Of a stretch of DNA of 29,245 nucleotides, positions 1-9,940 are shown in pieces. The DNA lies in IMG/VR virus record IMGVR_UViG_2778261122_000007, positions 1 through 29,245 of that record. One strand, 5' to 3'. Numbering within the stretch: the first letter of the stretch is position 1; each line of letters begins with the position of its first letter. The notes beneath the pieces were generated by a model, which saw nothing but the letters and a program-made list of their open reading frames with translations, had not been told where the DNA came from and did not search any database. Position numbers and translations under genes: made by a program. This DNA is from a virus (taxonomy: Duplodnaviria > Heunggongvirae > Uroviricota > Caudoviricetes).

Positions 1-567
1 TATCGCGTCCTCAACAATGAATTTTGTGATGCGGTGCCTGGTGCCTCCAGGTGACGTTAACCAGTTAACAATTAACGCCGGATACAGAGAATCCACCCAT
101 GACACTGTTTTTGGTTTTAACTGTTCCGCGTGCGCTCAGCCGCATTCACCGCATCACAAAATTCACTTTAAAAAGGGCGGCAGAGCAGTCACGGAGTAAA
201 ACTGATACCGCCAAACGTCACCAGAAAATTGATAACAGAGGGCGTTGCAGCGGGGTTGTCACTTAAGCGTATGGTCAACCTGACAACCCGGTGTCCTCAA
301 CGGGGAAGGAATAACCCCGCCATACTTACCGTCGCGCCATTTCGCGGAGTGCCACAACCGGAAGCGCACGGTCGAAGAAAATTTAACGACAGACTATCTA
401 TGAACCAGCAACCTCGCCGTGCGCTTTCGCGTTATGCTCTGACTTTTCAGGGAAATATCCTTTCAGTAAACTGTCAGTGCCGGATGCTGACCCGTGTCCG
501 GCGCACGCACTCCACCTCACCCGTGGAGAACTCCTTAATTACCAACCTTAGCTTCGTTGGTTAGCTA

Positions 568-786
568 TTAACGCGGGTATGTAATCATTCTGGCAATGCT
601 TAATGCCGCTGCTTTTTCCAGCCTGGTGATATCCTGCTCCAGAGCGGACAGGTTTTCAGCCTGCTTAGCCCTGGCTTCATTGGCCCATTTCAGATCCTGC
701 GCTGCATTAATTTTCTGGCGCATCCACTCATAAAGTTCATCATCGGTATAGTCTGGCGCGATGATGATGGGTTCTCGTTTCTGCAT
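568..786 (-). CDS. hypothetical small protein (72 aa), early-left operon
   Basis: Intact ORF from the track; AGGAG Shine-Dalgarno immediately upstream of the ATG on the reverse strand (787-800); ordinary codon usage; same orientation as the repressor. No family recognised. Confidence 0.5.
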   Translation of the reverse strand: MQKREPIIIAPDYTDDELYEWMRQKINAAQDLKWANEARAKQAENLSALEQDITRLEKAAALSIARMITYPR

Positions 787-857
787 GTCGGCTCCTTGTG
801 GTTAGCGTTGCCTGCTTTTAACCACGTCAGGCGAGGTGGTATCCTCTGAGGGGGCTG

Positions 858-1214
858 TTACTCGAGAGGAAATTGGTTATGAATACAATCAAGTTTTCTT
901 GCCCAGAATGTGGTGGCGAAGTCTTTGACACATCCTTTAAGCCGCAGGGCTCTGACAGTTTCGCGGGAGCCATCTGCAAAAATTGTGGTCACCTTGTAAC
1001 TGAAGATGAGTCCTCGCAGTTCGATGACGAAATCGTTGACAATATCTTCGGTGCACTCACCAGAGACTTTCTGAAGTAAAGGCGCATACCGCTTAGTTAC
1101 CGCTCTGATAACTCTTACCTGTCCGGCAATGGCGCTGATATCAATATAAAGCGCCATCGCTGTTTCTTTGCTGATCCCTGGACGCCTTCCATTCTGATGT
1201 TTGACTTCGCCCAC
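858..1214 (-). CDS. hypothetical protein (118 aa), possible first gene of a leftward PL-like operon; overlaps and may be mutually exclusive with 879-1079 (+)
   Basis: ORF from the track; GTG start at 1214 preceded by GAGGA; lies downstream of a candidate leftward promoter/operator at 1395-1445; contains several AGA/AGG/GGA codons, which weakens the call. Confidence 0.3.
   Translation of the reverse strand: MGEVKHQNGRRPGISKETAMALYIDISAIAGQVRVIRAVTKRYAPLLQKVSGECTEDIVNDFVIELRGLIFSYKVTTIFADGSRETVRALRLKGCVKDFATTFWARKLDCIHNQFPLE
879..1079 (+). CDS. small zinc-ribbon protein (67 aa; CPECGG ... CKNCGH)
   Basis: ATG at 879 with GAGAGGA Shine-Dalgarno at 864-870; two CxxC pairs about 27 residues apart, typical of a zinc ribbon; clean codon usage. 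Fully overlapped by the antisense ORF 858-1214. Confidence 0.4.
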   Translation: MNTIKFSCPECGGEVFDTSFKPQGSDSFAGAICKNCGHLVTEDESSQFDDEIVDNIFGALTRDFLK

Positions 1215-1394
1215 TGAGAAATCCTCTGTTTCCCCTTAACGCCGGGGTAGCGGAACAAAAACCTGCTGCATAGTTATTAAAGTTGAACCCTGCCGTCATG
1301 TTCTTACGCCTCAGGCTGGCTACTTAACCCCTGACCACTGCCGGGTAACTCGAAGTATTGCCCTGCATTCTGTGGGGCGGGGTGGGTGGCAGGT

Positions 1395-1445
1395 ATATAA
1401 TGTACTTTGCGTTCATTGTTGTAAAGTACTTTTAGTACATTTTGT
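1395..1445. promoter_or_regulatory. candidate OL/PL-like operator-promoter region downstream of the repressor gene
   Basis: AATGTACT at 1399-1406, its inverted copy AGTACATT at 1434-1441 and AAAGTACT at 1423-1430; TATAAT/TATATA at 1394-1400 readable on either strand; the same ATGTACT motif recurs at 1960-1966 and 1984-1990 on the other side of the repressor. Confidence 0.35.
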
Positions 1446-1515
1446 GTGTAAAAAAATGAGATGGGATAAAGTGAAGCACAAACCCGGAGGAAGGCACTAC
1501 CGGATTTATGCTGGT

Positions 1516-1935
1516 TTAAGAGGCTTTTTGTTTTTTCTTTCGTGCTAACTCTTCGTAAATTGCATTGTACTTCTGTTTTTTCTCTTCAAGAGTTTTTAAA
1601 AGTTCATCTGTCTCACTGTCAGGGAGCTCGTCCAGAAGGTCAATGATGATTTTTTGTCTTGGATTTAACTCCTGATAGAAACGTACCTGTCCACTTTCTT
1701 CTGTATCCTCTCCCAAAAGATAGGTTGGTGTTGTTCCTATTAGTGTTGCTAATTCCCTTAATTTCTCCCGGCGAGGAATTGTTTCGCCATTAAACCATTT
1801 GCTAACCGCTTTTGGTGTTAATTTCATTCGACGGGCAATTTCTGCCTGCCTTCCATGTTGTTCATAACCAGCGTTTTCACAGGCTAGCGCAAGCCTACTG
1901 GCGAACTCTTTACGCGCTTTATCTTCATGAACCAT
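1516..1935 (-). CDS. prophage repressor, XRE-family helix-turn-helix (DicA/CI-like)
   Basis: 139 aa; HTH segment (MKLTPKAVSKWFNGETIPRREKLRELATLIGTTPTYLL) followed by an acidic/coiled C-terminal tail, the same architecture as DicA as I recall it; divergent from a Cro-like gene. Confidence 0.85.
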   Translation of the reverse strand: MVHEDKARKEFASRLALACENAGYEQHGRQAEIARRMKLTPKAVSKWFNGETIPRREKLRELATLIGTTPTYLLGEDTEESGQVRFYQELNPRQKIIIDLLDELPDSETDELLKTLEEKKQKYNAIYEELARKKKQKAS

Positions 1936-2014
1936 AAGTTCAATGATATTCGCTCTTGAATGTACTGTCAGTTCTGTTATAGCATGTACTCAAAGTTCAC
2001 ATTGTGAGGGTGAT
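1936..2014. promoter_or_regulatory. divergent promoter/operator region between repressor and cro-like gene (OR-like)
   Basis: 79-bp gap between divergent genes; direct repeats of ATGTACT at 1960-1966 and 1984-1990; inverted repeat TCACA-TT-TGTGA around 1996-2006; GAGGG Shine-Dalgarno at 2005-2009. Confidence 0.5.
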
Positions 2015-2269
2015 ATGAACCAGAAAACACTTGAAGATGTAATCAAAACTGTTCGCGTTGCTGTTGTGGCCGACGTTTGTGGTGTCAGCCAAAGAGCAAT
2101 CTATAAATGGATGGATAACGGGAAATTGCCTCGCACAGAATATACCGGCGAAACAAATTACGCTGAAAAAATCGCTCTTGCATCAAACGGATTATTTTCT
2201 GCCGATGCAATTTTAACTATTGGCAGGAATAAAACTACTACGAAAAAGCTGATGGGAGTTGATTCATGA
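2015..2269 (+). CDS. Cro/DicC/YdaS-family small HTH regulator
   Basis: 84 aa from ATG 2015 (the track ORF starts earlier at 1943); GAGGG Shine-Dalgarno 5 nt upstream; HTH-like segment CGVSQRAIYKWMDNGKLP; divergent from the repressor. Confidence 0.75.
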   Translation: MNQKTLEDVIKTVRVAVVADVCGVSQRAIYKWMDNGKLPRTEYTGETNYAEKIALASNGLFSADAILTIGRNKTTTKKLMGVDS

Positions 2270-2691
2270 AAATCAAGCATGAACACATCCGCATGGCGAT
2301 GAATGACTGGGCGCGTCCTGATGGTGAAAAAGTTCCGGCAGCTGGAATAACCCAGGCTTATTTTGAGTTGGGTATGACGTTTCCTGAACTGTACGACGAC
2401 AGCCATCCGGAAGCCCTGGCTCGCAATACCCAGAAAATTTTCCGCTGGATAGAGAAAGACACCCCTGATGCAGTTGAAAAAATTCAGGCGTTGTTACCAG
2501 CGATCGAAAAGGCAATGCCACCTTTGCTGGTGGCCAGAATGCGCAGCCACAGTTCAGCTTATTTTCGGGAGCTGGTGGAGACGCGGGAGCGACTGGTGAG
2601 AGACGCTGATGATTTTGTCGCAGTGGCAATCGCCGGTTTCAATCAGATGAACCGTGGTGGCCCGGCAGGAAATGCTGTGGCAGTACATTGA
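2266..2691 (+). CDS. YdaT-like protein (CII-like regulator/toxin family of Rac-type prophages)
   Basis: 141 aa; start overlaps the upstream stop (ATGA); N-terminus MKIKHEHI and C-terminal ...VH match my recollection of Rac YdaT; position after the cro-like gene is as in Rac (ydaS-ydaT-ydaU). Confidence 0.65.
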   Translation: MKIKHEHIRMAMNDWARPDGEKVPAAGITQAYFELGMTFPELYDDSHPEALARNTQKIFRWIEKDTPDAVEKIQALLPAIEKAMPPLLVARMRSHSSAYFRELVETRERLVRDADDFVAVAIAGFNQMNRGGPAGNAVAVH

Positions 2692-2762
2692 CTGACAATA
2701 GCCATATCGAATCGCTTCCGGCAACTCGTGAGTAAAAAGATTCGGTATCAGAAGAGGTGAGT

Positions 2763-3833
2763 ATGGCTAACGCCTGGCTCAGATTATGGCATGACATGCC
2801 AAATGACCCTAAGTGGCGAACAATTGCCAGGGTGTCAGGGCAGCCAATTGCAACAGTGATGGCAGTGTATATCCACCTCCTGGTGAGTGCGTCACGAAAT
2901 GTCACGCGAGGTCACATTGATGTCACGACAGAAGATTTGGCAAGTGCGCTCGACGTGACAGAAGAGGTAATTGATTCAATTTTGCAGACGATGCAGGGGC
3001 GGGTACTTGATGGTGATTTAATCACTGGATGGGAAAAACGCCAGGTGCTTAAAGAGGACAACGGCAATATTTCGCAAACCGCAAAATCTCCTGCAGAGCG
3101 CAAGAGGGCGCAGCGAGAGAGGGAAAGAAAGCGGGAACAAAATGGCGATTGTCACGGCGCGTCACGAAATGTCACGCACATGTCACGACGAGTCACGACA
3201 GATAAAGATACAGATAAAGATACAGATCAAGAAGATCAAAACACTATGGTCCATGGCGTAAAAAACGCCACGAACCAGGCAGGGGATGTTCAGACCGTCA
3301 ATCCTGGTCAGCCAGCAGGCACGACACCGGAAGCCGATTCAGCGTATGCGCTGAAAGCCGATTCGGGCGCTGTGCAGCAGGCGATGACCGCAGGGTCGGA
3401 GCAATCACACCAACTGCAGCAGCCTGAAGCCGATTCCGCCATTCAGCGGGAAGCCGATCGGGTAGTCCCGAAAAACACCGGGCAGCCTGTGGGACGAGTG
3501 GATTATCCGGATGTGTTCGAACAGATCTGGCGGGAGTACCCGTTGCGTGCCGGGGCAAACCCGAAGAAATCCGCTTTCAGTGCCTGGAAGGCCAGATTAC
3601 GCGAGGGGGTGCCACCAGAGGCCATGCTGGATGGCGTGAGGCGTTACGCAAGATACCTAGCGGTTACCGGGAAAACGGGAACGGAATTTGTTCAGCGGGC
3701 GACGACGTTTTTTGGACCGGACCGGAATTTTGAAAACCCCTGGTTGCTCCCGGTAAGCGGCACGAACAACCAGCGTTGTGTGAATCATATTTCTGAACCG
3801 GATACCGAAATTCCGCCGGGCTTCAGGGGGTAA
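2763..3833 (+). CDS. replication initiation protein (lambda O / YdaU-like), with internal iterons
   Basis: 356 aa from ATG 2763 (GAAGAGG Shine-Dalgarno; the track begins at GTG 2757); position after the cro/cII-like genes; contains two GTCACG iteron arrays and an adjacent tandem repeat, as lambda O contains its origin; basic/acidic low-complexity linker. Confidence 0.7.
   Translation: MANAWLRLWHDMPNDPKWRTIARVSGQPIATVMAVYIHLLVSASRNVTRGHIDVTTEDLASALDVTEEVIDSILQTMQGRVLDGDLITGWEKRQVLKEDNGNISQTAKSPAERKRAQRERERKREQNGDCHGASRNVTHMSRRVTTDKDTDKDTDQEDQNTMVHGVKNATNQAGDVQTVNPGQPAGTTPEADSAYALKADSGAVQQAMTAGSEQSHQLQQPEADSAIQREADRVVPKNTGQPVGRVDYPDVFEQIWREYPLRAGANPKKSAFSAWKARLREGVPPEAMLDGVRRYARYLAVTGKTGTEFVQRATTFFGPDRNFENPWLLPVSGTNNQRCVNHISEPDTEIPPGFRG
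2889..2959. repeat. iteron array 1: GTCAC(G/A) at 2891, 2901, 2911, 2922 (10-11 bp phasing) plus an inverted copy at 2954-2959
   Basis: Counted directly from the sequence; the 19-mer GCGTCACGAAATGTCACGC at 2889-2907 is repeated exactly at 3159-3177. Confidence 0.75.
3151..3197. repeat. iteron array 2: GTCACG at 3151, 3161, 3171, 3182, 3192 (10-11 bp phasing)
   Basis: Counted directly from the sequence; five helically phased copies; encodes the repeated RNVT/RRVT peptide motif in frame. Confidence 0.75.
3201..3228. repeat. tandem repeat GATAAAGATACA (about 2.3 copies), A/T-rich, immediately after iteron array 2
   Basis: Seen directly (gataaagataca gataaagataca gatc); encodes DKDTDKDTD; its position matches the A/T-rich unwinding element next to the iterons in lambda ori. 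Confidence 0.6.
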
Positions 3834-3873
3834 GTGTTTATTTCAGCTCATGAGGTAATTATCAGGAGGAGTT

Positions 3874-4299
3874 GTGGCAAAAGTTTTTACACAAGAAGAG
3901 CGGGAAAAAATTAAAGGGCAGGTTGTTGAACTTGTACGCCAGAGTGGGCGCGAGACGTTACGGCAACTGGAAGCCAAGACAGGTGCGACAAGATATTTGA
4001 TGAGTGTTCTCGCCAGAGAGCTGGTTGCCAGTGGCGATGTATACAATTCTGGCTACGGGTTATTCCCGTCTGAACAGGCTCGTAAAGACTGGCAAAACGC
4101 CCGCAAAAAATTATCGAGGGCAAAGCTGAAGAAACCGGTTGTGGTTGATCCGGACCTTATGTGGTCATTACCAGATGGAGAAATACGTCGCTACGACAGG
4201 CACCTGAATATAATCTGTCGCGAGTGCCGGGAGAGCGAAGTTATGCAGCGCATACTGGCATTTTATCAAGGAAATGTTAGGTATTTTAGACGTTACTAG
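3874..4299 (+). CDS. hypothetical protein (141 aa), possibly winged-helix-like
   Basis: ORF from the track with AGGAGG Shine-Dalgarno upstream (3862-3867); sits where a helicase loader (lambda P / DnaC-like) would be expected but is far too small and has no ATPase motifs. Confidence 0.55.
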   Translation: MAKVFTQEEREKIKGQVVELVRQSGRETLRQLEAKTGATRYLMSVLARELVASGDVYNSGYGLFPSEQARKDWQNARKKLSRAKLKKPVVVDPDLMWSLPDGEIRRYDRHLNIICRECRESEVMQRILAFYQGNVRYFRRY

Positions 4300-4527
4300 A
4301 TTAAAGAGCATTAGTTCAGATGTGAATTGACATTTTCATGGCGCAGGGTAGAGCTAGCGTGGTAGTTTTCTTTGTGCCAGAAACGGCATTTGCAAATATG
4401 GCCATGCGCTGTCACTTAGAGAGGAGCACAGGATTTACCTGTGCTCAAGTTCAATAGTAAAGATGAAAATATTATGAAGATGGTGGGGGAAATGTAACTG
4501 CAGTAATACTTTGTGCAAAAGTAGTAA

Positions 4528-5034
4528 TTATTTCTTTGCAGCCAGAATCAGGCCGTCAAGCCACTCCTGGTGACCATTGAGCATTGGGTTCGGACGAGTA
4601 TTTGCCAGGTCTTTTGCTGGAACTCCGTTCTGCGTTTCCTGTGTCAGGATACGGAGTCTGTTACCCGAGAGTTCCTCCAGTAGCCACGCATGATGAACAT
4701 CTAGGCGTTGTACAGTATCTTTTTCACCGGACCATCCGTGCCATGCCAAACGAGCAGGTTTACCTTCAGTAGGTGGAATAAATTCCACGACCTGAGCTTC
4801 AACCGGAAATCCAAATGTGCTGAAGTAAAAGCGCACGCCATTTTCCAGCTCCGGACCTTTATTGTTATAAAAGCGCACATCTGCTGAATTTTTATAGTAT
4901 TCCGGCCATAGTAATGGCTGACTAAGGAGTGGCCAAACATCATTGATGTTCAGACCGGAGATGATCATTTCATTAGACACAAAGTTATCAGTAAATCCCG
5001 GAACAAAGCCTTCTGGCCAGTGAATAGCGTTCAT
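4528..5034 (-). CDS. SRPBCC (Bet v1-like / polyketide cyclase-like) family protein
   Basis: 168 aa from ATG at 5034 (GGAGG Shine-Dalgarno on the reverse strand; the track ORF starts at TTG 5046); aromatic-rich composition typical of SRPBCC ligand-binding folds; family assigned by recognition, not by search. Confidence 0.7.
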   Translation of the reverse strand: MNAIHWPEGFVPGFTDNFVSNEMIISGLNINDVWPLLSQPLLWPEYYKNSADVRFYNNKGPELENGVRFYFSTFGFPVEAQVVEFIPPTEGKPARLAWHGWSGEKDTVQRLDVHHAWLLEELSGNRLRILTQETQNGVPAKDLANTRPNPMLNGHQEWLDGLILAAKK

Positions 5035-5169
5035 AAATGCCTCCAATTGCGGTAGTTAATTGTACTGGGTTTGCTGCGTTACGACCGCAACACGATGGCA
5101 GTGATTATTAGCGCAATGAAGTTATAAGGCGAATTATGATTACTTATAATCTTAATAAGATAAATTATA

Positions 5170-6078
5170 TCAGGAGCCAGTATCTTGGCTAACTTCTACG
5201 CATAAAGCCCGAATCCACTGATGGCTAGGGTCACGATGAGTTCGTTCATGCCAGGCCATACTCTTGGTAAAGCCCGGAACTTTCAGGGGCAAAGGGAGTA
5301 TGATTAGATCGTTGTTAGTCAGGACCATGCGGTGGGGGACAACAGCGATCATATCAGTCACTTGCAATATATCAGGAACTACTTGAAAACTATTAACTGA
5401 CATGCCTACTCGTCGTGTCAGACTGAGCTTAGCCAGTGCTTCATCTGTAACACCGGAGAAGCTACCTTCTGAAGACACCAGAATATGTTCCTGTTTGCAA
5501 AATTGTTCGAGAGTCATTTCTGAATTCGCTGACAACGGATGATTCCGTCGTGCTATGCAAACATAATCTTCTTCATAAAGTGCTCTGCCGTGCAGCTCTC
5601 CGGGAGTGGTTTGTGGTGTTACCAAAGCCAGATCAACTTCTCCCTGAGATAACTGCTGATATATTCGTTTATTGTCTACAGGCCGCACAGAGATTTTAAT
5701 ATTCGGTGCTCGATGTTTCAGCGCAGCCATCAATGGGACAACAACAGCCTTAACTGCATAGTCCGTTGCGACAATGGTATAAGTTAGTTCTGCCGTCATG
5801 GGGTCAAATTTACTTGGTTTCAGCAGAATCGCGATATCGGTGAGAATTTGTTTTACCGGCATAGCAAGCTCTTTGGCACGTAGTGTGGGAACCATACCGT
5901 GACTGGTGCGAACAAAGAGAGGATCGCAAAAATAATCACGTAATCGAATAAGCATGCCACTGACAGCGGGCTGCGTCAGGGAGAGTCGCTGCGCAGCCCG
6001 AGTCACGCTTCCCTCATCCATTAACGCATCAAAGGTCTTAAGTAAGTTAAGGTCGAGGGTTTTGATATCATTTTTCAT
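5170..6078 (-). CDS. LysR-family transcriptional regulator
   Basis: 302 aa; canonical LysR N-terminal HTH (LNLLKTFDALMDEGSVTRAAQRLSLTQPAVSGMLIRLRDYF) followed by a substrate-binding domain. Confidence 0.9.
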   Translation of the reverse strand: MKNDIKTLDLNLLKTFDALMDEGSVTRAAQRLSLTQPAVSGMLIRLRDYFCDPLFVRTSHGMVPTLRAKELAMPVKQILTDIAILLKPSKFDPMTAELTYTIVATDYAVKAVVVPLMAALKHRAPNIKISVRPVDNKRIYQQLSQGEVDLALVTPQTTPGELHGRALYEEDYVCIARRNHPLSANSEMTLEQFCKQEHILVSSEGSFSGVTDEALAKLSLTRRVGMSVNSFQVVPDILQVTDMIAVVPHRMVLTNNDLIILPLPLKVPGFTKSMAWHERTHRDPSHQWIRALCVEVSQDTGS

Positions 6079-6409
6079 AATGAGGTCACCTGACAGATAT
6101 AAAAATGTTGATTGAGGCTAATTGCCCCGATGAAGGTTGTCGAGGGGAACCAGGAGTTTTTTCTTTTGGGTGATTTCCATTGCTGGATAGTTCCCTTGTA
6201 CAGATAAGTCCGTTCTTCGCACAAAGCGGACTGGAAGGTTAGCTTGAGTCGGACTTTGCGTATTAGAAGAAGTGCTGGTGGTGACTGGTTCTTGAGCCCC
6301 ATTTCCCCAGAAAAAATCAGAGAAACTATACCCAATAGTTGTATTGATTCACTGACGAGACGGCCTCATATTGATAGGGACTAGTGTGCATCCAATACAG
6401 GAGGTTGTT

Positions 6410-6499
6410 GTGCTGGTTCTCAAATGTGCGCTGGCTATTGCGGCTGTAATGGCAATTTATTGTCTTTCTGTTGTTCTTATGGATCGCCTTTCTGATTGA
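6410..6499 (+). CDS. candidate small hydrophobic membrane peptide (29 aa; MLVLKCALAIAAVMAIYCLSVVLMDRLSD)
   Basis: Not in the ORF track (shorter than 60 aa). Strong CAGGAGG Shine-Dalgarno at 6398-6404, 5 nt before GTG 6410; single predicted transmembrane helix; lies upstream of hok. Confidence 0.35.
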   Translation: MLVLKCALAIAAVMAIYCLSVVLMDRLSD

Positions 6500-6653
6500 T
6501 TTCATATTGGCGAGGTAACGGTAGTTAAGTAGAATTGCTGCGGGTGCTTGAGGCTATCTGCCTCGGGCATGAACACCAACGGCAGATAGAGAAAAGCCCC
6601 AGTTAACATTACGCGTCCTGCAAGACGTTTAACATTAATCTGAGGCCATATCT

Positions 6654-6713
6654 ATGCGACACATAGAGATTAGCCTCTTACGGACCGAAAGGTCAAGGAG
6701 AAGCAGGCTATGA
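6654..6713 (+). CDS. mok-like leader ORF (19 codons) translationally coupled to hok
   Basis: ATG 6654 to TGA 6711-6713; the stop overlaps the hok start (ctATGa). Classic mok is longer, so this is an inference. Confidence 0.3.
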   Translation: MRHIEISLLRTERSRRSRL

Positions 6714-6865
6714 AGCAGCAAAAGGCGATGCTAATCGCCCTGATCGTCATCTGTTTAACCGTCATAGTGACGGCACTGGTAACGAGGAAAGACCTCTGCG
6801 AGGTACGAATCCGAACCGGCCAGACGGAGGTCGCTGTCTTCACAGCTTACGAACCTGAGGAGTAA
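6710..6865 (+). CDS. hok: Hok/Gef-family type I toxin (51 aa), HokD/RelF-like
   Basis: Not in the ORF track. Translation MKQQKAMLIALIVICLTVIVTALVTRKDLCEVRIRTGQTEVAVFTAYEPEE has the Hok signature (TM helix, TRK.LCE.R motif, conserved Cys); matches HokD as I recall it; structured leader upstream and terminator downstream. Confidence 0.85.
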   Translation: MKQQKAMLIALIVICLTVIVTALVTRKDLCEVRIRTGQTEVAVFTAYEPEE

Positions 6866-6933
6866 GAGACCAGGCGGGGGAGAAATCCCTCGCCACCTCT
6901 GATGTGTCAGGCATCCTCAACGCACCCGCACTT

Positions 6934-6960
6934 AACCCGCTTCGGCGGGTTTTGTTTTTT
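6934..6960 (+). terminator. rho-independent terminator downstream of hok
   Basis: AACCCGC-TTCG-GCGGGTT hairpin followed by TTTGTTTTTT. Confidence 0.7.
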
Positions 6961-7032
6961 CCTAGCATTCTGGTTTACAATTCGCACGCCAGCCTGAACA
7001 ACTGGCACCTGCTGCGCCAGCAGAGACAACCG

Positions 7033-7311
7033 ATGGCGCGCGATACCAAATTACACAATTCTAATGATTCTGCCGTCTTTGCCAGCAGGTGCGGACGGCG
7101 TTTTCACGCATTCAAATCAGACTGGTTCCAGCATCCTCCATGCACTGAAGAGCAGGCTGAATGGATAATTCAGTGTTACCGCAGGCGTGGATACGAGGTT
7201 AAGAAAGCTCTTAGTCTCGACTATCGTCACTGGATAATCTCAGTCAGACTCCCTTACTCCGAACGCCCACCGCGTCCGTCCCGCACATTCCAGCAACGGA
7301 TTTGGAGGTAA
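7033..7311 (+). CDS. hypothetical protein (92 aa), rem-like by position between hok and the DUF968 gene
   Basis: The track ORF 6904-7311 spans the hok terminator, so the first ATG after it (7033) is used; the hok-rem-ydfU-Q order is as I recall it for Qin. Start and identity are uncertain. Confidence 0.4.
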   Translation: MARDTKLHNSNDSAVFASRCGRRFHAFKSDWFQHPPCTEEQAEWIIQCYRRRGYEVKKALSLDYRHWIISVRLPYSERPPRPSRTFQQRIWR

Positions 7312-7312
7312 C

Positions 7313-8362
7313 GTGCGGGTATTACTTCGACCTGTTCTGGTACCGGAACTCGGGCTGGTGGTCCTTAAGCCAGGTCGTGAATCCATGCAGGTATTTCACA
7401 ATCCTCGAGTGCTGGTGGAGCCGGAACCGAAAAGCATGTGCGGCCTGCCATCCGGAGTCGTCCCTGCCGTTCGCCAGCCGCTGGCGGAGGATAAATCATT
7501 ACTGCCATTTTTCAGCGATGAGCGGGTGATTCGTGCTGCTGGCGGCGCTGGGGCACTGTCTGACTGGCTGTTGCGTCATGTCAAATCCTGCCAGTGGCCT
7601 CATGGTGACTATCATCACAGTGAAATCGTCATACATCGTTACGGTACCGGCGCGATGGTGTTGTGCTGGCACTGCGACAACCAGCTGCGTGACCAGACAT
7701 CCGAATCACTCGAGCAACTTGCTCATCAAAATCTGTCAGCATGGATGATTGACGTCATACGCCATGCAATGAATGGCACGCAGGAGAGGGAGTTATCGCT
7801 GGCTGAATTATCCTGGTGGGCGGTCTGCAATCAAGTGGCGGACGCGCTTCCGGAGGCAGTATTACGTCGTTCTCTGGGGTTACGTGCGGAAAAAATCCGC
7901 TCAATGTACCGTGAAAGCGACATCGTACCGGGAGAGCAGACCGCCACCAGCATACTGAAGCAGCGCACAAAAAATCTTGCGCCGTTGCTTCACACCCACC
8001 AGCCACAGAACCCAGCACAGGAAAAGCAGGTGGTCAGCATTGCCGTTGATCCGGAGTCTCCGGAATCTTTCATGAGGCGACCTAAACGTCGCCGTTGGGT
8101 AAATGAGAAATATACGCGCTGGGTGAAGACACAGCCGTGTGCGTGTTGTGGTCAACCAGCCGACGATCCCCATCACCTGATTGGTCACGGTCAGGGAGGG
8201 ATGGGAACAAAGGCCCACGATATTTTCACGCTACCGTTGTGCCGGGAACATCACAACGAACTTCATGCGGATCCGCTGGCGTTCGAAGAAAAGCATGGTT
8301 CTCAGGTTGATTTAATTTTTCGTTTTCTTGATCACGCCTTTGCAACCGGCGTGCTTGGGTAA
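7313..8362 (+). CDS. DUF968-family prophage protein (YdfU-like) with a C-terminal Cys/His cluster
   Basis: 349 aa; GTG 7313 preceded by GGAGG at 7304-7308; C-terminus CACCGQPADDPHHLIGHGQGGMGTKAHDIFTLPLCREHHNELH resembles an HNH/zinc-binding motif; position just upstream of rusA and Q. Confidence 0.7.
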   Translation: MRVLLRPVLVPELGLVVLKPGRESMQVFHNPRVLVEPEPKSMCGLPSGVVPAVRQPLAEDKSLLPFFSDERVIRAAGGAGALSDWLLRHVKSCQWPHGDYHHSEIVIHRYGTGAMVLCWHCDNQLRDQTSESLEQLAHQNLSAWMIDVIRHAMNGTQERELSLAELSWWAVCNQVADALPEAVLRRSLGLRAEKIRSMYRESDIVPGEQTATSILKQRTKNLAPLLHTHQPQNPAQEKQVVSIAVDPESPESFMRRPKRRRWVNEKYTRWVKTQPCACCGQPADDPHHLIGHGQGGMGTKAHDIFTLPLCREHHNELHADPLAFEEKHGSQVDLIFRFLDHAFATGVLG

Positions 8363-8374
8363 AAGAGGTTACTG

Positions 8375-8734
8375 ATGCGTATAGAGTTTGTTTTGCCTTA
8401 TCCGCCGACGGTGAATACTTACTGGCGACGTCGTGGCAGCACATATTTTGTATCAAAAGTCGGTGAGTGTTATCGCCGTGATGTGGCGCTTATTGTTCGC
8501 CAGCAGCGGCTGAAATTAAAACTGTCCGGAAGGCTGGCGATAAAGATTATTGCAGAGCCACCGGATAAGCGCCGTCGTGACCTGGACAATATCCTGAAAG
8601 CACCACTGGATGCGCTGACGCATGCCGGACTACTCATAGACGACGAGCAGTTTGATGAAATCAATATTGTGCGCGGTCAGCTCGTTCCTGGTGGGCGGCT
8701 GGGGATAAAAATCACAGAACTGGAGTGCGCATGA
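8375..8734 (+). CDS. rusA: RusA Holliday-junction resolvase
   Basis: 119 aa; DKRRRDLDN motif and overall similarity to E. coli RusA; located in the nin-like region before Q. Confidence 0.9.
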   Translation: MRIEFVLPYPPTVNTYWRRRGSTYFVSKVGECYRRDVALIVRQQRLKLKLSGRLAIKIIAEPPDKRRRDLDNILKAPLDALTHAGLLIDDEQFDEINIVRGQLVPGGRLGIKITELECA

Positions 8735-9420
8735 ATAACCAGTATTTACAGTTTGTGCGTGAGCAGCTCATTATCGCCACCGCTGATTTGAGTGGGGCAA
8801 CAAAAGGTCAGCTTGAAGTCTGGCAGGAGAATGCCATGTTCGATACAGGGCGTTACAGGCGAAAAAAAATCCGGTACCGCGATGAAGTGACTGGAAAAAT
8901 GATAACGCGGGATAATCCACCAATCCCGGGAAAGCAATCGCTGGCGAAGGGGACGTCAATTCCTCTGGTCAGTCCGGTTGAGTTTTCGACATCATCGTGG
9001 CGGCGGGCTGTTCTGTCTCTTGAAGAACATCATAAAGCCTGGTTGTTATGGTGTTACAGCGGGAGTATTTGTTGGGAATATCAGATCGCGATAACACAGT
9101 GGGCGTGGAATGAATTTAATACTCAATCCGGTACCAGAAAAATTGCAGGGAAAACGCAGGAACGCCTGAAAAAATTAATCTGGCTGGCGGCGCAGGCAGT
9201 AAAAGCAGAACTTTTAGATGGGGAAGGTTATGAATACCAGGAGCTGGCATTACTGGCGGGAGTGACAACTAAAAACTGGTCCAAAACATTTACTCGTCAC
9301 TGGGTTGCAATGAAACACATTTTTCAACGACTGGATAGTGAGGCTTTATTGTTTGTAATGAGAACGCGTTCAAAACAAAAGGCGGCATTTTCAAAGCAAA
9401 GTGTTGCAAAAGTAGATTGA
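8731..9420 (+). CDS. late-gene antiterminator Q-like protein
   Basis: 229 aa from ATG 8731 (overlaps the rusA stop in ATGA; the track starts at GTG 8725); last early gene before the tRNA/lysis region; Q family assigned by position and size, not by a recognised motif. Confidence 0.7.
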   Translation: MNNQYLQFVREQLIIATADLSGATKGQLEVWQENAMFDTGRYRRKKIRYRDEVTGKMITRDNPPIPGKQSLAKGTSIPLVSPVEFSTSSWRRAVLSLEEHHKAWLLWCYSGSICWEYQIAITQWAWNEFNTQSGTRKIAGKTQERLKKLIWLAAQAVKAELLDGEGYEYQELALLAGVTTKNWSKTFTRHWVAMKHIFQRLDSEALLFVMRTRSKQKAAFSKQSVAKVD

Positions 9421-9630: not shown

Positions 9631-9706
9631 GGCCCTTTAGCTCAGTGGTGAGAGCGAGCGACTCATAATCGCCAGGTCGCTGGTTCAAATCCAGCAAGGG
9701 CCACCA
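9631..9706 (+). tRNA. tRNA with CAU anticodon, Ile2 (lysidine) type, ileX/ileZ-like
   Basis: Manual cloverleaf: acceptor GGCCCTT/AAGGGCC, anticodon arm GCGACTCATAATCGC, T-loop TTCAAAT, encoded CCA; very close to my recollection of E. coli ileX. Confidence 0.8.
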
Positions 9707-9707
9707 A

Positions 9708-9784
9708 CCGCCACTAGCTCATCAGGAAAGAGCGTCAACCCTTTAAGTTGAGTGTGCGAGGTTCGAGTCCCCGGTGGCGGTCCA
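9708..9784 (+). tRNA. tRNA-like gene, anticodon loop CCUUUAA (apparent anticodon UUU, Lys); non-canonical C33 and an A-C mismatch in the T-stem
   Basis: Manual fold: acceptor CCGCCAC/GTGGCGG, D-arm GCTC/GAGC, anticodon stem TCAAC/GTTGA, T-loop TTCGAGT, encoded CCA. Identity is uncertain; it could be a degenerate or specialised tRNA. Confidence 0.5.
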
Positions 9785-9786
9785 GT

Positions 9787-9862
<76 letters not shown>

Positions 9863-9865
9863 TAT

Positions 9866-9940
<75 letters not shown>

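What the first reader, a model, noticed from the sequence alone, without database searches (positions are those of the whole stretch)
2889..3228. Two helically phased GTCACG iteron arrays plus an A/T-rich tandem repeat inside the replication initiator gene: candidate origin
Nine direct GTCAC(G/A) copies and one inverted copy lie within about 300 bp, in two clusters (2891-2927 and 3151-3197) with 10-11 bp spacing, and they share an exact 19-mer (GCGTCACGAAATGTCACGC). Cluster 2 is followed directly by a GATAAAGATACA tandem repeat. This mirrors lambda ori, which sits inside gene O as iterons plus an A/T-rich unwinding element. The DNA repeats also force a repeated RNVT / DKDTD peptide into the initiator's linker.
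Basis: partly seen in the sequence, partly recalled or inferred. Interest (0 to 1): 0.6.

Follow-up and report, generated by a model that had tools for sequence, protein, structure and literature searches.

The report
Prophage replication origin inside initiator gene
The repeats are real and are conserved as DNA rather than as protein across very different bacteria, so they are most likely the replication origin of this E. coli prophage, sitting inside the gene of the protein that recognises it, a familiar phage design seen here in a common initiator family for which I found no published origin.

Summary
Nine of the window's 22 GTCACG copies lie within 2889-3228 (Poisson P about 1e-13). They fall in all three reading frames, 10-11 bp apart, in two arrays, and array 2 abuts an ACAGATAAAGAT tandem tract.

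The gene (2763-3833) encodes a lambdoid replication initiator: a winged-helix N-domain, a disordered linker, and a shuffled C-module with a DnaT-like tail.

In 24 diverged homologues, from hosts of 34-69% GC in the gamma- and beta-proteobacteria, GTCAC sits at the same gene positions. Codons inside the hexamers are frozen (98.6% same codon, against 37.8% elsewhere). A (GATAAA)n tract always follows array 2. Sister clades keep this layout but carry other hexamers (GTAACG, CGAACGC). An unrelated O157 N-module has its own AAGGGGCTT arrays.

In E. coli the N-domain plus arrays recombine as one module, and the junction lies in the AT tract. The DNA signature was found only inside this gene family (113 of 114 assessable viral contigs).

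Best reading: an iteron-plus-unwinding-element origin bound by the gene's own N-domain, analogous to lambda ori in gene O and SPP1 oriL in gene 38. It is a new member of a known kind. Binding and autonomous replication remain untested.

The parts
2763..3833 (+). Replication initiator gene (356 aa, ATG at 2763), the only recognisable replication gene of the prophage
   Evidence: PHROG phrog_3729 'replication initiation protein', E = 3.8e-254. RefSeq names it 'phage replisome organizer'. Homologues start MANxW. No helicase or loader gene was found among the window ORFs tested (1-9420 plus two others) or is annotated in phage Tritos.
2763..3050 (+). Coding sequence of the winged-helix N-terminal domain (aa 1-96), the presumed iteron reader
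2889..2927 (+). Iteron array 1: GTCACG at 2891, 2901 and 2922, GTCACA at 2911; spacing 10, 10, 11 bp. It encodes the loop SRNVTRGHIDVT (aa 44-55) between helix 29-45 and helix 56-63
   Evidence: Same gene positions (129, 139, 149, 160) in most of the 24 diverged loci. Codons V47 GTC, T48 ACG, G50 GGT, H51 CAC, V54 GTC and T55 ACG are each 19/19.
2954..2959 (-). Single inverted hexamer copy (CGTGAC on the + strand), 33 bp after array 1
   Evidence: A minus-strand GTCAC at gene position ~193 (or the shifted equivalent) is present in most GTCAC-clade loci. Val65 is GTG in 16/16 here, while Val in the direct copies is GTC in 19/19.
3151..3197 (+). Iteron array 2: five GTCACG at 3151, 3161, 3171, 3182 and 3192, in the disordered linker (aa 130-145)
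   Evidence: Homologues carry 3-6 copies at the same place. Of 141 adjacent-copy spacings, 100 are 10 bp and 30 are 11 bp.
3198..3238 (+). AT- and purine-rich tandem tract (ACAGATAAAGAT x 2.9, then CAAGAAGATC): presumed DNA unwinding element and the module junction
   Evidence: It is the least stable 30-mer of the gene and lies in the top 0.24% of the window. AGATAAAGATAAAGA-type sequence follows the last iteron in most of the 24 loci, with AGATAAGAGAAG-type or degenerate variants in the rest, including a 69% GC host, and in clades with other iterons, in different reading frames. The homology breakpoint between the N- and C-modules lies at 3220-3238.
3247..3277 (.). Inverted repeat TGGTCCATGGCG-N7-CGCCACGAACCA just right of the AT tract; a possible third origin element
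   Evidence: The DNA hairpin is -8.7 kcal/mol, z = -3.1. GC-rich inverted repeats sit at the same relative position in many homologues (the control is imperfect).
3238..3833 (+). C-terminal module (rest of the linker, helical domain aa 245-335, DnaT-like tail aa 336-356): presumed helicase-recruiting part
   Evidence: In other proteins it is joined to unrelated N-domains: PF13730, PF07120/DUF1376, PF04492 (lambda O N-terminal) and the O157 type. The last 21 aa match the E. coli DnaT C-terminus, 14/21 identical.

Best explanation
Positions 2889-3238 are the cis-acting replication origin of this lambdoid prophage, embedded in the gene of its own initiator. After prophage induction, the gene is transcribed and translated from the rightward early promoter. 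The winged-helix N-domain then binds the GTCACG hexamers. These sit once per helical turn, so all lie on one face of the DNA, in two arrays about 260 bp apart. The bound proteins oligomerise into a nucleoprotein complex. This strains and opens the adjacent, exceptionally unstable (GATAAA)n tract next to array 2. The C-terminal module, with its DnaT-like tail, then brings the host DnaB helicase (with DnaC) to the opened DNA. Related phages instead encode their own P-like, DnaC-like or DnaB-like partner next to the initiator gene. Array 1 probably acts as an auxiliary or nucleating array, or as a looping partner. Shown here by computation: the repeats, their phasing, selection at the DNA level, strict linkage to the N-domain, the unstable tract, the fold, and the modular context. 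Inferred: binding, oligomerisation, unwinding, helicase recruitment and the role of array 1.
For: (1) Clustering: 9 of 22 hexamers lie in 340 bp, P = 1e-13, in all three reading frames.
(2) DNA-level selection: among 19 homologues that are about 69% identical in nucleotides, residues shared by two sequences use the same codon 98.6% of the time inside hexamers and 37.8% elsewhere. Invariant residues outside the hexamers use 4-6 different codons.
(3) The arrays keep the same gene positions in hosts of 34-69% GC from Enterobacterales, Pseudomonadales, Burkholderiales, Neisseriales and Xanthomonadales. Adjacent copies are 10 bp apart in 100 cases and 11 bp in 30.
(4) The AT tract follows array 2 in most loci and clades (degenerate purine-rich variants in the rest), is read in different frames, and is the least stable stretch of the gene.
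(5) Architecture is kept while sequence changes: sister clades carry GTAACG or CGAACGC at the same two places. The unrelated O157 N-module has AAGGGGCTT in two arrays 256 bp apart.
(6) Co-inheritance: in E. coli, gene nt 1-458 (N-domain plus both arrays) and nt 476-1071 recombine independently.
(7) The signature GTCACG-N4-GTCACG-NN-AGATAAAGAT was found in at least 120 viral contigs. 113 of 114 assessable cases lie about 420-440 nt into a gene of this family, and the exception is a truncated copy.
(8) The N-domain is a winged helix similar to the DnaD N-terminal domain and to plasmid RepA initiators.
(9) Downstream genes in homologues are lambda-P-like, DnaC/IstB-like, DnaB-like or primase-helicase.
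(10) The C-module is also fused to the lambda O-type N-domain PF04492.
(11) Precedent: lambda ori lies in gene O (PMC7466680, PMC3349717) and SPP1 oriL lies in gene 38 (PMC6316719).
Against: There is no experimental evidence for binding, unwinding or autonomous replication. I found no small natural plasmid that relies on this gene alone: only 11 plasmid records carry it, all either large or phage-like. The window encodes no helicase loader, so recruitment of host DnaB/DnaC is pure inference. Origin sites and autoregulatory or copy-control sites for the same protein cannot be told apart by sequence. Array 1 has no AT tract of its own, and a few distant clades lack a clear array 1. The winged-helix helix 67-77, which by position would be the recognition helix, is acidic and variable, so how the domain reads DNA is unclear.
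Confidence: 0.82

Rival explanations
1. The hexamers are binding sites for the gene's own product, but they serve autoregulation or copy control (titration, handcuffing, a roadblock to transcription through the gene) and not initiation. The true origin lies elsewhere.
For: The linkage to the N-domain and the DNA-level conservation fit any cognate binding site. Array 1 has no adjacent AT tract. Iterons of plasmids and of lambda are known to titrate their initiators (discussed in PMC3349717).
Against: Array 2 is always joined to a highly unstable AT tract, even in a 69% GC host. No other hexamer cluster exists in the window or in the whole Tritos genome. Position and layout match the proven origins in lambda O and SPP1 gene 38. 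This explanation is not exclusive with the best one: iterons commonly do both jobs.
Confidence: 0.1
2. The element is a cis site for something other than the initiator: a host protein conserved across proteobacteria, another phage protein, or simply a recombination linker that promotes module exchange.
For: The mosaic junction lies exactly in the shared (GATAAA)n tract. The same tract also occurs in the unrelated Rac ydaU gene, so it can act as microhomology for shuffling. The hosts span two classes, so a conserved host factor is conceivable.
Against: The flanking genes (repressor/cro types upstream, loader types downstream) vary, and only the N-domain stays constant with the arrays. The hexamer changes between clades of the N-domain, which a conserved host factor would not predict. 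The hexamer is not a site of DnaA, IHF or Fis that I recognise (own knowledge). A recombination role for the AT tract is compatible with the origin reading.
Confidence: 0.06
3. There is no DNA function. The repeats reflect a repeated peptide or a low-complexity linker that the protein needs, or a chance or slippage expansion.
For: The peptide ASRNVTRGH-DVT is the most conserved motif of the family. The search tool picked it as a family pattern. R49-G50 is kept through varying codons, so there is some selection at the protein level.
Against: The hexamers are read in all three frames. Synonymous sites are frozen only inside them (98.6% against 37.8%). Val-Thr is GTC-ACG in the direct copies but GTG-ACA in the inverted copy. 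The loop tolerates 7-residue insertions and complete replacement in sister clades. The AT tract is conserved across reading frames.
Confidence: 0.02

Closest known systems
Lambda origin (ori-lambda) inside gene O, and its Stx-phage variants
   Same: The origin lies inside the initiator gene, in the segment between the DNA-binding N-domain and the C-domain. Direct iterons are followed at once by an AT-rich tract about 40 bp long. The position is nearly identical (+349 to +475 in O, +389 to +470 here). Iteron number varies between relatives and adds residues to the protein. The N-module plus origin is exchanged as a unit. (PMC7466680, PMC3349717.)
   Different: The N-domain is not Pfam Phage_rep_O. 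The sites are 6-bp cores every 10-11 bp, not 18-19-bp units. There is a second array, inside the coding sequence of the folded DNA-binding domain, plus an inverted copy. No P gene follows in this prophage.
SPP1 replisome organiser G38P with oriL inside gene 38 (and lactococcal phage Rep proteins of Pfam Phage_rep_org_N)
   Same: An origin-binding 'replisome organiser' whose gene contains direct repeats plus an AT-rich unwinding element (PMC6316719). The repeats in gene 38 lie at +362 to +449. RefSeq gives the window protein the same name. There is a weak but full-length match to PF09681.
   Different: The Pfam and TIGRFAM scores are below threshold. A profile comparison with G38P finds nothing. 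SPP1 has a second origin 13 kb away and its own loader and helicase. Here both arrays lie in one gene, and this prophage encodes no loader.
RepA_N plasmid initiators of Gram-positive bacteria (e.g. pSK41 RepA) and the DnaD N-terminal domain
   Different: No sequence similarity was detected. The hosts differ, these are plasmids and not phages, and the C-domains differ.
Rac prophage YdaU (DUF1376) region / oriJ
   Same: Same gene position in the same kind of immunity-replication module. The gene has its own internal repeats ((A/G)TGTTCAA) followed by almost the same AAAGATACAGATAAAGATC tract, and the same IPPGFRG C-terminal tail. Rac has an active origin, oriJ (PMC3945230).
   Different: The N-domain family and the repeat sequence are different. 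The published oriJ qPCR primers lie about 0.7 kb downstream in ydaV, so I could not establish the exact position of oriJ relative to these repeats.

Membership tests
Iteron-type theta origin (general) | Three or more direct repeats of one short sequence, clustered and helically phased | tested here: met
   4 + 5 direct copies at 10-11 bp spacing. Across 24 loci, adjacent copies are 10 bp apart in 100 cases and 11 bp in 30.
Iteron-type theta origin (general) | Adjacent AT-rich DNA unwinding element | tested here: met
   3198-3232 is the least stable 30-mer of the gene and lies in the top 0.24% of the window. It or a purine-rich variant is present next to array 2 in all 24 homologues.
Iteron-type theta origin (general) | Repeats are bound by the cognate initiator | not testable with these tools
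   Only indirect evidence: strict co-occurrence with the N-domain and a switch of repeat type between N-domain clades.
Iteron-type theta origin (general) | The fragment supports autonomous replication when the initiator is present | not testable with these tools
   No natural mini-replicon was found among the plasmids.
Lambda O / ori-lambda | Initiator N-domain belongs to Pfam PF04492 (Phage_rep_O) | tested here: not met
   No hit even at E <= 5. PF04492 is found only on other proteins that share the C-module.
Lambda O / ori-lambda | Origin lies within the initiator gene: iterons, then an AT-rich tract | tested here: met
   lambda layout from PMC3349717 and PMC7466680.
Lambda O / ori-lambda | 18-19-bp iterons with internal dyad symmetry, each bound by an O dimer | tested here: not met
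   The conserved core is 6 bp and the flanking positions are variable. That lambda iterons have dyad symmetry is from my own knowledge.
Phage replisome organiser (Pfam PF09681 / TIGR01714) | N-domain scores above the curated cut-off | tested here: not met
   16.6 bits against 23.3 (domain alone), 12.8 bits (full protein), and TIGR01714 15.4 against 49.8. Only 1 of 30 family members reaches E <= 0.01. hhalign against SPP1 G38P gives probability 0.2%. The alignment does span the whole model, so remote homology is not excluded.
Phage replisome organiser (Pfam PF09681 / TIGR01714) | Origin repeats inside the organiser gene | tested here: met
   PMC6316719.
DnaD-like / RepA_N winged-helix initiators | N-terminal winged-helix fold of the DnaD-NTD type | tested here: inconclusive

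The most novel reading that the evidence does not exclude
Array 1 is more than a passenger in the coding sequence. The beta-loop it encodes (aa 44-55, SRNVT-RG-HxDVT) would take part in reading the very hexamers that encode it. Binding site and reading head would then be written by the same nucleotides and would switch together between clades: GTCACG with SRNVT, CGAACGC with SNATE, GTAACG with QNVT/GVT. The conserved RG turn in all clades, and the fact that the loop sequence is the main difference between clades within an otherwise conserved winged helix, do not exclude this.
Probability: 0.07. Interest if true: 0.75.

Novelty: new member of a known kind. Interest (0 to 1): 0.42.

Why it matters
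This initiator is present nearly full-length in 1,647 of 5,426 complete E. coli genomes. Its N-domain family numbers about 1,000-2,200 clusters at 50% identity across the proteobacteria. It is not covered by Pfam, is mostly annotated 'hypothetical', and I found no paper describing its origin.

Defining the origin signature (GTCACG every 10-11 bp, in two arrays, followed by (GATAAA)n) has several uses:
- Origins could be annotated in thousands of prophages.
- It gives a clean design for experiments, because the hexamers can be recoded synonymously to separate the cis function from the trans function.
- It explains why the family's most conserved peptide motif exists: it is imposed by the DNA.
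- It offers a natural series of initiator and iteron specificities for studying how origin recognition evolves.

It does not change the textbook picture of lambdoid replication.

Tried and rejected
- Literature searches for a published origin of this family found nothing relevant. Two searches were wasted on ambiguous words: 'phage Evi' and 'oriJ', which is also an author name. The Weigel and Seitz 2006 review, which may list predicted origins of such modules, is not held.
- I tried to tie the Rac ydaU repeats to the mapped oriJ. The only coordinates I could recover are qPCR primers lying in ydaV, so that link remains open.
- A search of plasmids for a natural mini-replicon carrying only this gene found none.
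- A profile comparison with SPP1 G38P gave no similarity.
- The Rfam scan found nothing in the region, and the promoter/terminator scan found nothing above shuffle expectation. An RNA-element reading was therefore dropped.
- The test for a conserved hairpin after the AT tract gave mean z = -1.6 and 11 of 30 below -2. Dinucleotide shuffles destroy the AT/GC block structure, so I treat this result as suggestive only.
- I looked for residues of the winged helix that co-vary with iteron type. There are too many differences between clades to single out determinants.

Full report
**What is in the sequence**

The window is a lambdoid (Rac/Qin-like) E. coli prophage. Its early region runs as follows:
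- DicF RNA (175-226, minus strand)
- a repressor (1516-1935, minus strand)
- a Cro-like gene (1943-2269)
- a YdaT/CII-like gene (2266-2691)
- a 356-aa gene (2763-3833)
- a DUF977/Ren-like gene (3874-4299)

These are followed by cargo genes, hok/sok, DUF968, RusA, Q, four tRNAs, and the lysis and virion genes.

The 356-aa protein matches PHROG 3729, 'replication initiation protein', at E = 3.8e-254. RefSeq calls it 'phage replisome organizer' or 'hypothetical protein'.

Near-identical genes occur in the isolated phages Tritos, Evi and 204576. The gene covers at least 80% of its length in 1,647 of 5,426 complete E. coli genomes.

- GTCACG occurs 22 times in the window, and 9 copies lie in 2889-3228. 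About 0.15 are expected there, giving P = 1.1e-13. No other 340-bp stretch holds more than 2.
- With the GTCACA at 2911, there are four direct copies in array 1 (spacing 10, 10, 11 bp), one inverted copy at 2954, and five direct copies in array 2 (spacing 10, 10, 11, 10 bp).
- The 19-mer shared by the two arrays is exact.
- ACAGATAAAGAT x 2.9 starts at 3198, the base after the last hexamer.
- The copies are read in all three frames, so this is a DNA repeat.
- In the complete 46-kb Tritos genome, the only such cluster is in this gene.

**Selection acts on the DNA**

The N-domain (aa 1-128) has 2,252 relatives at E <= 1e-3 in a library clustered at 50% identity.

I fetched 39 loci from one-genome-per-species contigs. 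About 27 of them carry GTCAC at the same gene positions: 129, 139, 149, 160, an inverted copy at 193, and 3-5 copies near 387-420. Their local GC content runs from 34% (Entomomonas) to 69% (Pseudothauera). The hosts include Serratia, Rahnella, Pseudomonas, Bordetella, Acidovorax, Chromobacterium, Aquitalea and Stenotrophomonas.

In 19 of these, mean nucleotide identity is 69%. Invariant residues outside the hexamers use 4-6 synonymous codons (R7 six, L8 five, P13, T20, V32 and V81 four each).

Inside the hexamers the codons are fixed:
- V47 GTC, T48 ACG, G50 GGT, H51 CAC, V54 GTC and T55 ACG, each 19/19
- S44 TCA, 18/19

The Val of the inverted copy is GTG in 16/16.

Over 171 sequence pairs, identical residues share the same codon in 98.6% of cases inside hexamers and in 37.8% elsewhere. 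This rules out a purely protein-level explanation.

**The layout is conserved while the sequence changes**

Across 24 loci, 100 of the adjacent-copy spacings are 10 bp and 30 are 11 bp. Each array has 3-6 copies, and the array starts are mostly 250-260 bp apart.

In most loci the last hexamer of array 2 is followed after two bases by AGATAAAGATAAAGA-type sequence. The rest carry AGATAAGAGAAG-type or more degenerate purine-rich variants. The reading frame of the tract differs between homologues. In the window this tract is the least stable 30-mer of the gene and lies in the top 0.24% of the window.

Sister clades of the same N-domain carry GTAACG (or mixed GTNACG) or CGAACGC at the same two positions, and again a GATA(A/C)AG tract follows.

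An O157:H7 prophage initiator has an unrelated N-module but the same C-module (90% identity). It carries AAGGGGCTT at 11-bp spacing in two arrays 256 bp apart, followed by a (CAGGAA)n purine tract.

Rac ydaU belongs to a third N-domain family, DUF1376. It has (A/G)TGTTCAA repeats followed by AAAGATACAGATAAAGATC.

**The arrays travel with the N-domain**

In E. coli genomes, gene nt 1-458 (N-domain, both arrays, start of the AT tract) and nt 476-1071 are found separately, joined to other partners.

- Strains STEC276 and KY176 have this N-module at 89% and 84% identity. Their hexamers are invariant, their spacers vary, and array 1 holds two extra copies. The N-module is fused to a DnaT-domain C-module and followed by a lambda-P-like gene.
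- The C-module occurs behind N-domains of Pfam HTH_36, DUF1376 and Phage_rep_O, the lambda O N-domain.

Of the 114 matches far enough from a contig end to assess, 113 lie 398-482 nt into a gene that begins with the family motif. The exception is a 5'-truncated copy of the same gene.

Genes directly downstream of the initiator in diverse homologues include lambda-P-like, DnaC/IstB-like, DnaB-like and primase-helicase genes. Others are unrelated or unassigned. That mix is the usual context of an origin-binding initiator.

**The protein**

The AlphaFold2 model has four parts:
- a confident N-domain (aa 4-95), with helices 2-14, 16-25, 29-45, 56-63 and 67-77 and a beta hairpin at 78-88
- a basic helix (aa 110-129)
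- a disordered stretch (aa 128-224)
- a helical C-domain (aa 245-335)

Array 1 encodes the loop between helix 29-45 and helix 56-63. Array 2 and the AT tract lie in the disordered linker.

Sequence matches to Phage_rep_org_N are full-length but below threshold. A profile comparison with SPP1 G38P is negative.

The last 21 residues match the C-terminus of E. coli DnaT, 14/21 identical.

**Interpretation**

The most economical reading is an origin of the iterons-plus-unwinding-element kind, bound by the gene's own N-domain. It is functionally analogous to two characterised cases:
- Lambda ori in gene O: four 18-bp iterons plus a 38-bp AT-rich tract at 39034-39160. With the O start at 38686 (own knowledge), that is +349 to +475 of the gene (PMC3349717, PMC7466680).
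- SPP1 oriL in gene 38 (PMC6316719). I find its repeats at +362 to +449.

The differences from these are:
- a 6-bp core repeated once per helical turn
- a second array inside the coding sequence of the folded DNA-binding domain
- a single inverted copy
- an AT tract shared by clades, and even by N-domain families, that have different iterons
- no helicase loader gene in this prophage or in phage Tritos

The last point suggests direct use of host DnaB/DnaC through the C-module. That is an inference.

Binding, unwinding and autonomous replication are untested, so I give the origin reading 0.82. The main rival is that the sites serve copy control or autoregulation for the same protein. That rival is not exclusive with the origin reading.

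**Novelty and interest**

An origin inside the initiator gene is textbook for lambdoid phages, so a specialist would not be surprised. The new elements are:
- the specific signature for a very common initiator family that is uncurated in Pfam and for which I found no published origin
- unusually clean evidence from frozen synonymous sites across a 34-69% GC range
- the fact that the family's most conserved peptide motif is imposed by the DNA sites

I rate it a new member of a known kind, with interest 0.42.

Noticed in passing
window 3768-3830: The last 21 residues of the initiator (NQRCVNHISEPDTEIPPGFRG) match the extreme C-terminus of E. coli DnaT ([21 protein letters not shown]), 14/21 identical. 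The same IPPGFRG ending occurs on Rac YdaU and on several homologues with other C-modules. It may be a short motif for a shared host partner.
   Followed up: partly
window 3247-3277: An inverted repeat (12-nt arms, 7-nt A-rich loop) lies 15 bp after the AT tract. As a DNA hairpin it is -8.7 kcal/mol, z = -3.1. GC-rich inverted repeats (CCCCCC..GGGGG, CGCGC..GCGCG, CACCTACC..GGTAGGTG) sit at the same relative place in many homologues. The statistical control was imperfect.
   Followed up: partly
L006 (E. coli K-12 Rac) 2763-3125: ydaU (DUF1376) contains (A/G)TGTTCAA repeats followed by AAAGATACAGATAAAGATC, almost the same tract as window 3203-3228. The published 'oriJ' qPCR primers map about 0.7 kb downstream in ydaV (L006 3741-3895).
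   Followed up: partly
L004 (E. coli O157:H7 F3113) 2160-2500: This initiator has an unrelated N-module and the same C-module. It carries AAGGGGCTT repeats at 11-bp spacing in two arrays 256 bp apart, then a (CAGGAA)n purine tract: the same layout with a different iteron.
   Followed up: partly
window 4528-6078 (minus strand): A LysR-family regulator (5170-6078) and a 172-aa ORF with no Pfam hit (4528-5046) sit between the DUF977 and DUF968 phage genes. Some relatives carry DnaC-like and DUF1627 genes between the initiator and the DUF977 gene, which this prophage lacks. These two genes look like cargo.
   Followed up: no
window 6542-6865, 175-226 and 9631-9937: Rfam finds sok antitoxin RNA (6542-6712) next to a Hok-like 51-aa ORF (6710-6865), DicF RNA (175-226, minus strand) and four tRNA genes (9631-9937) downstream of the Q antiterminator gene.
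   Followed up: no
L043 and L044, about 3300-3480: In two distant homologues (Serratia MAG, Pantoea), the conserved N-domain is followed by a segment that looks like a GIY-YIG nuclease motif (YVYxV...GIS.NPW.R) in place of iteron array 2.
   Followed up: no
window 3224-3237: Two GATC (Dam) sites lie at the right end of the AT tract. A GATC (..AAAGATCTAAA..) ends the tract in several homologues and in Rac ydaU. Significance was not tested.
   Followed up: no
L002, L003 and L008 against window 2901-2911: Array 1 differs by a 21-bp insertion (two extra hexamers, 10 + 11 bp, seven codons) between close alleles. Copy number therefore changes in steps that keep both the reading frame and the helical phase.
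   Followed up: partly
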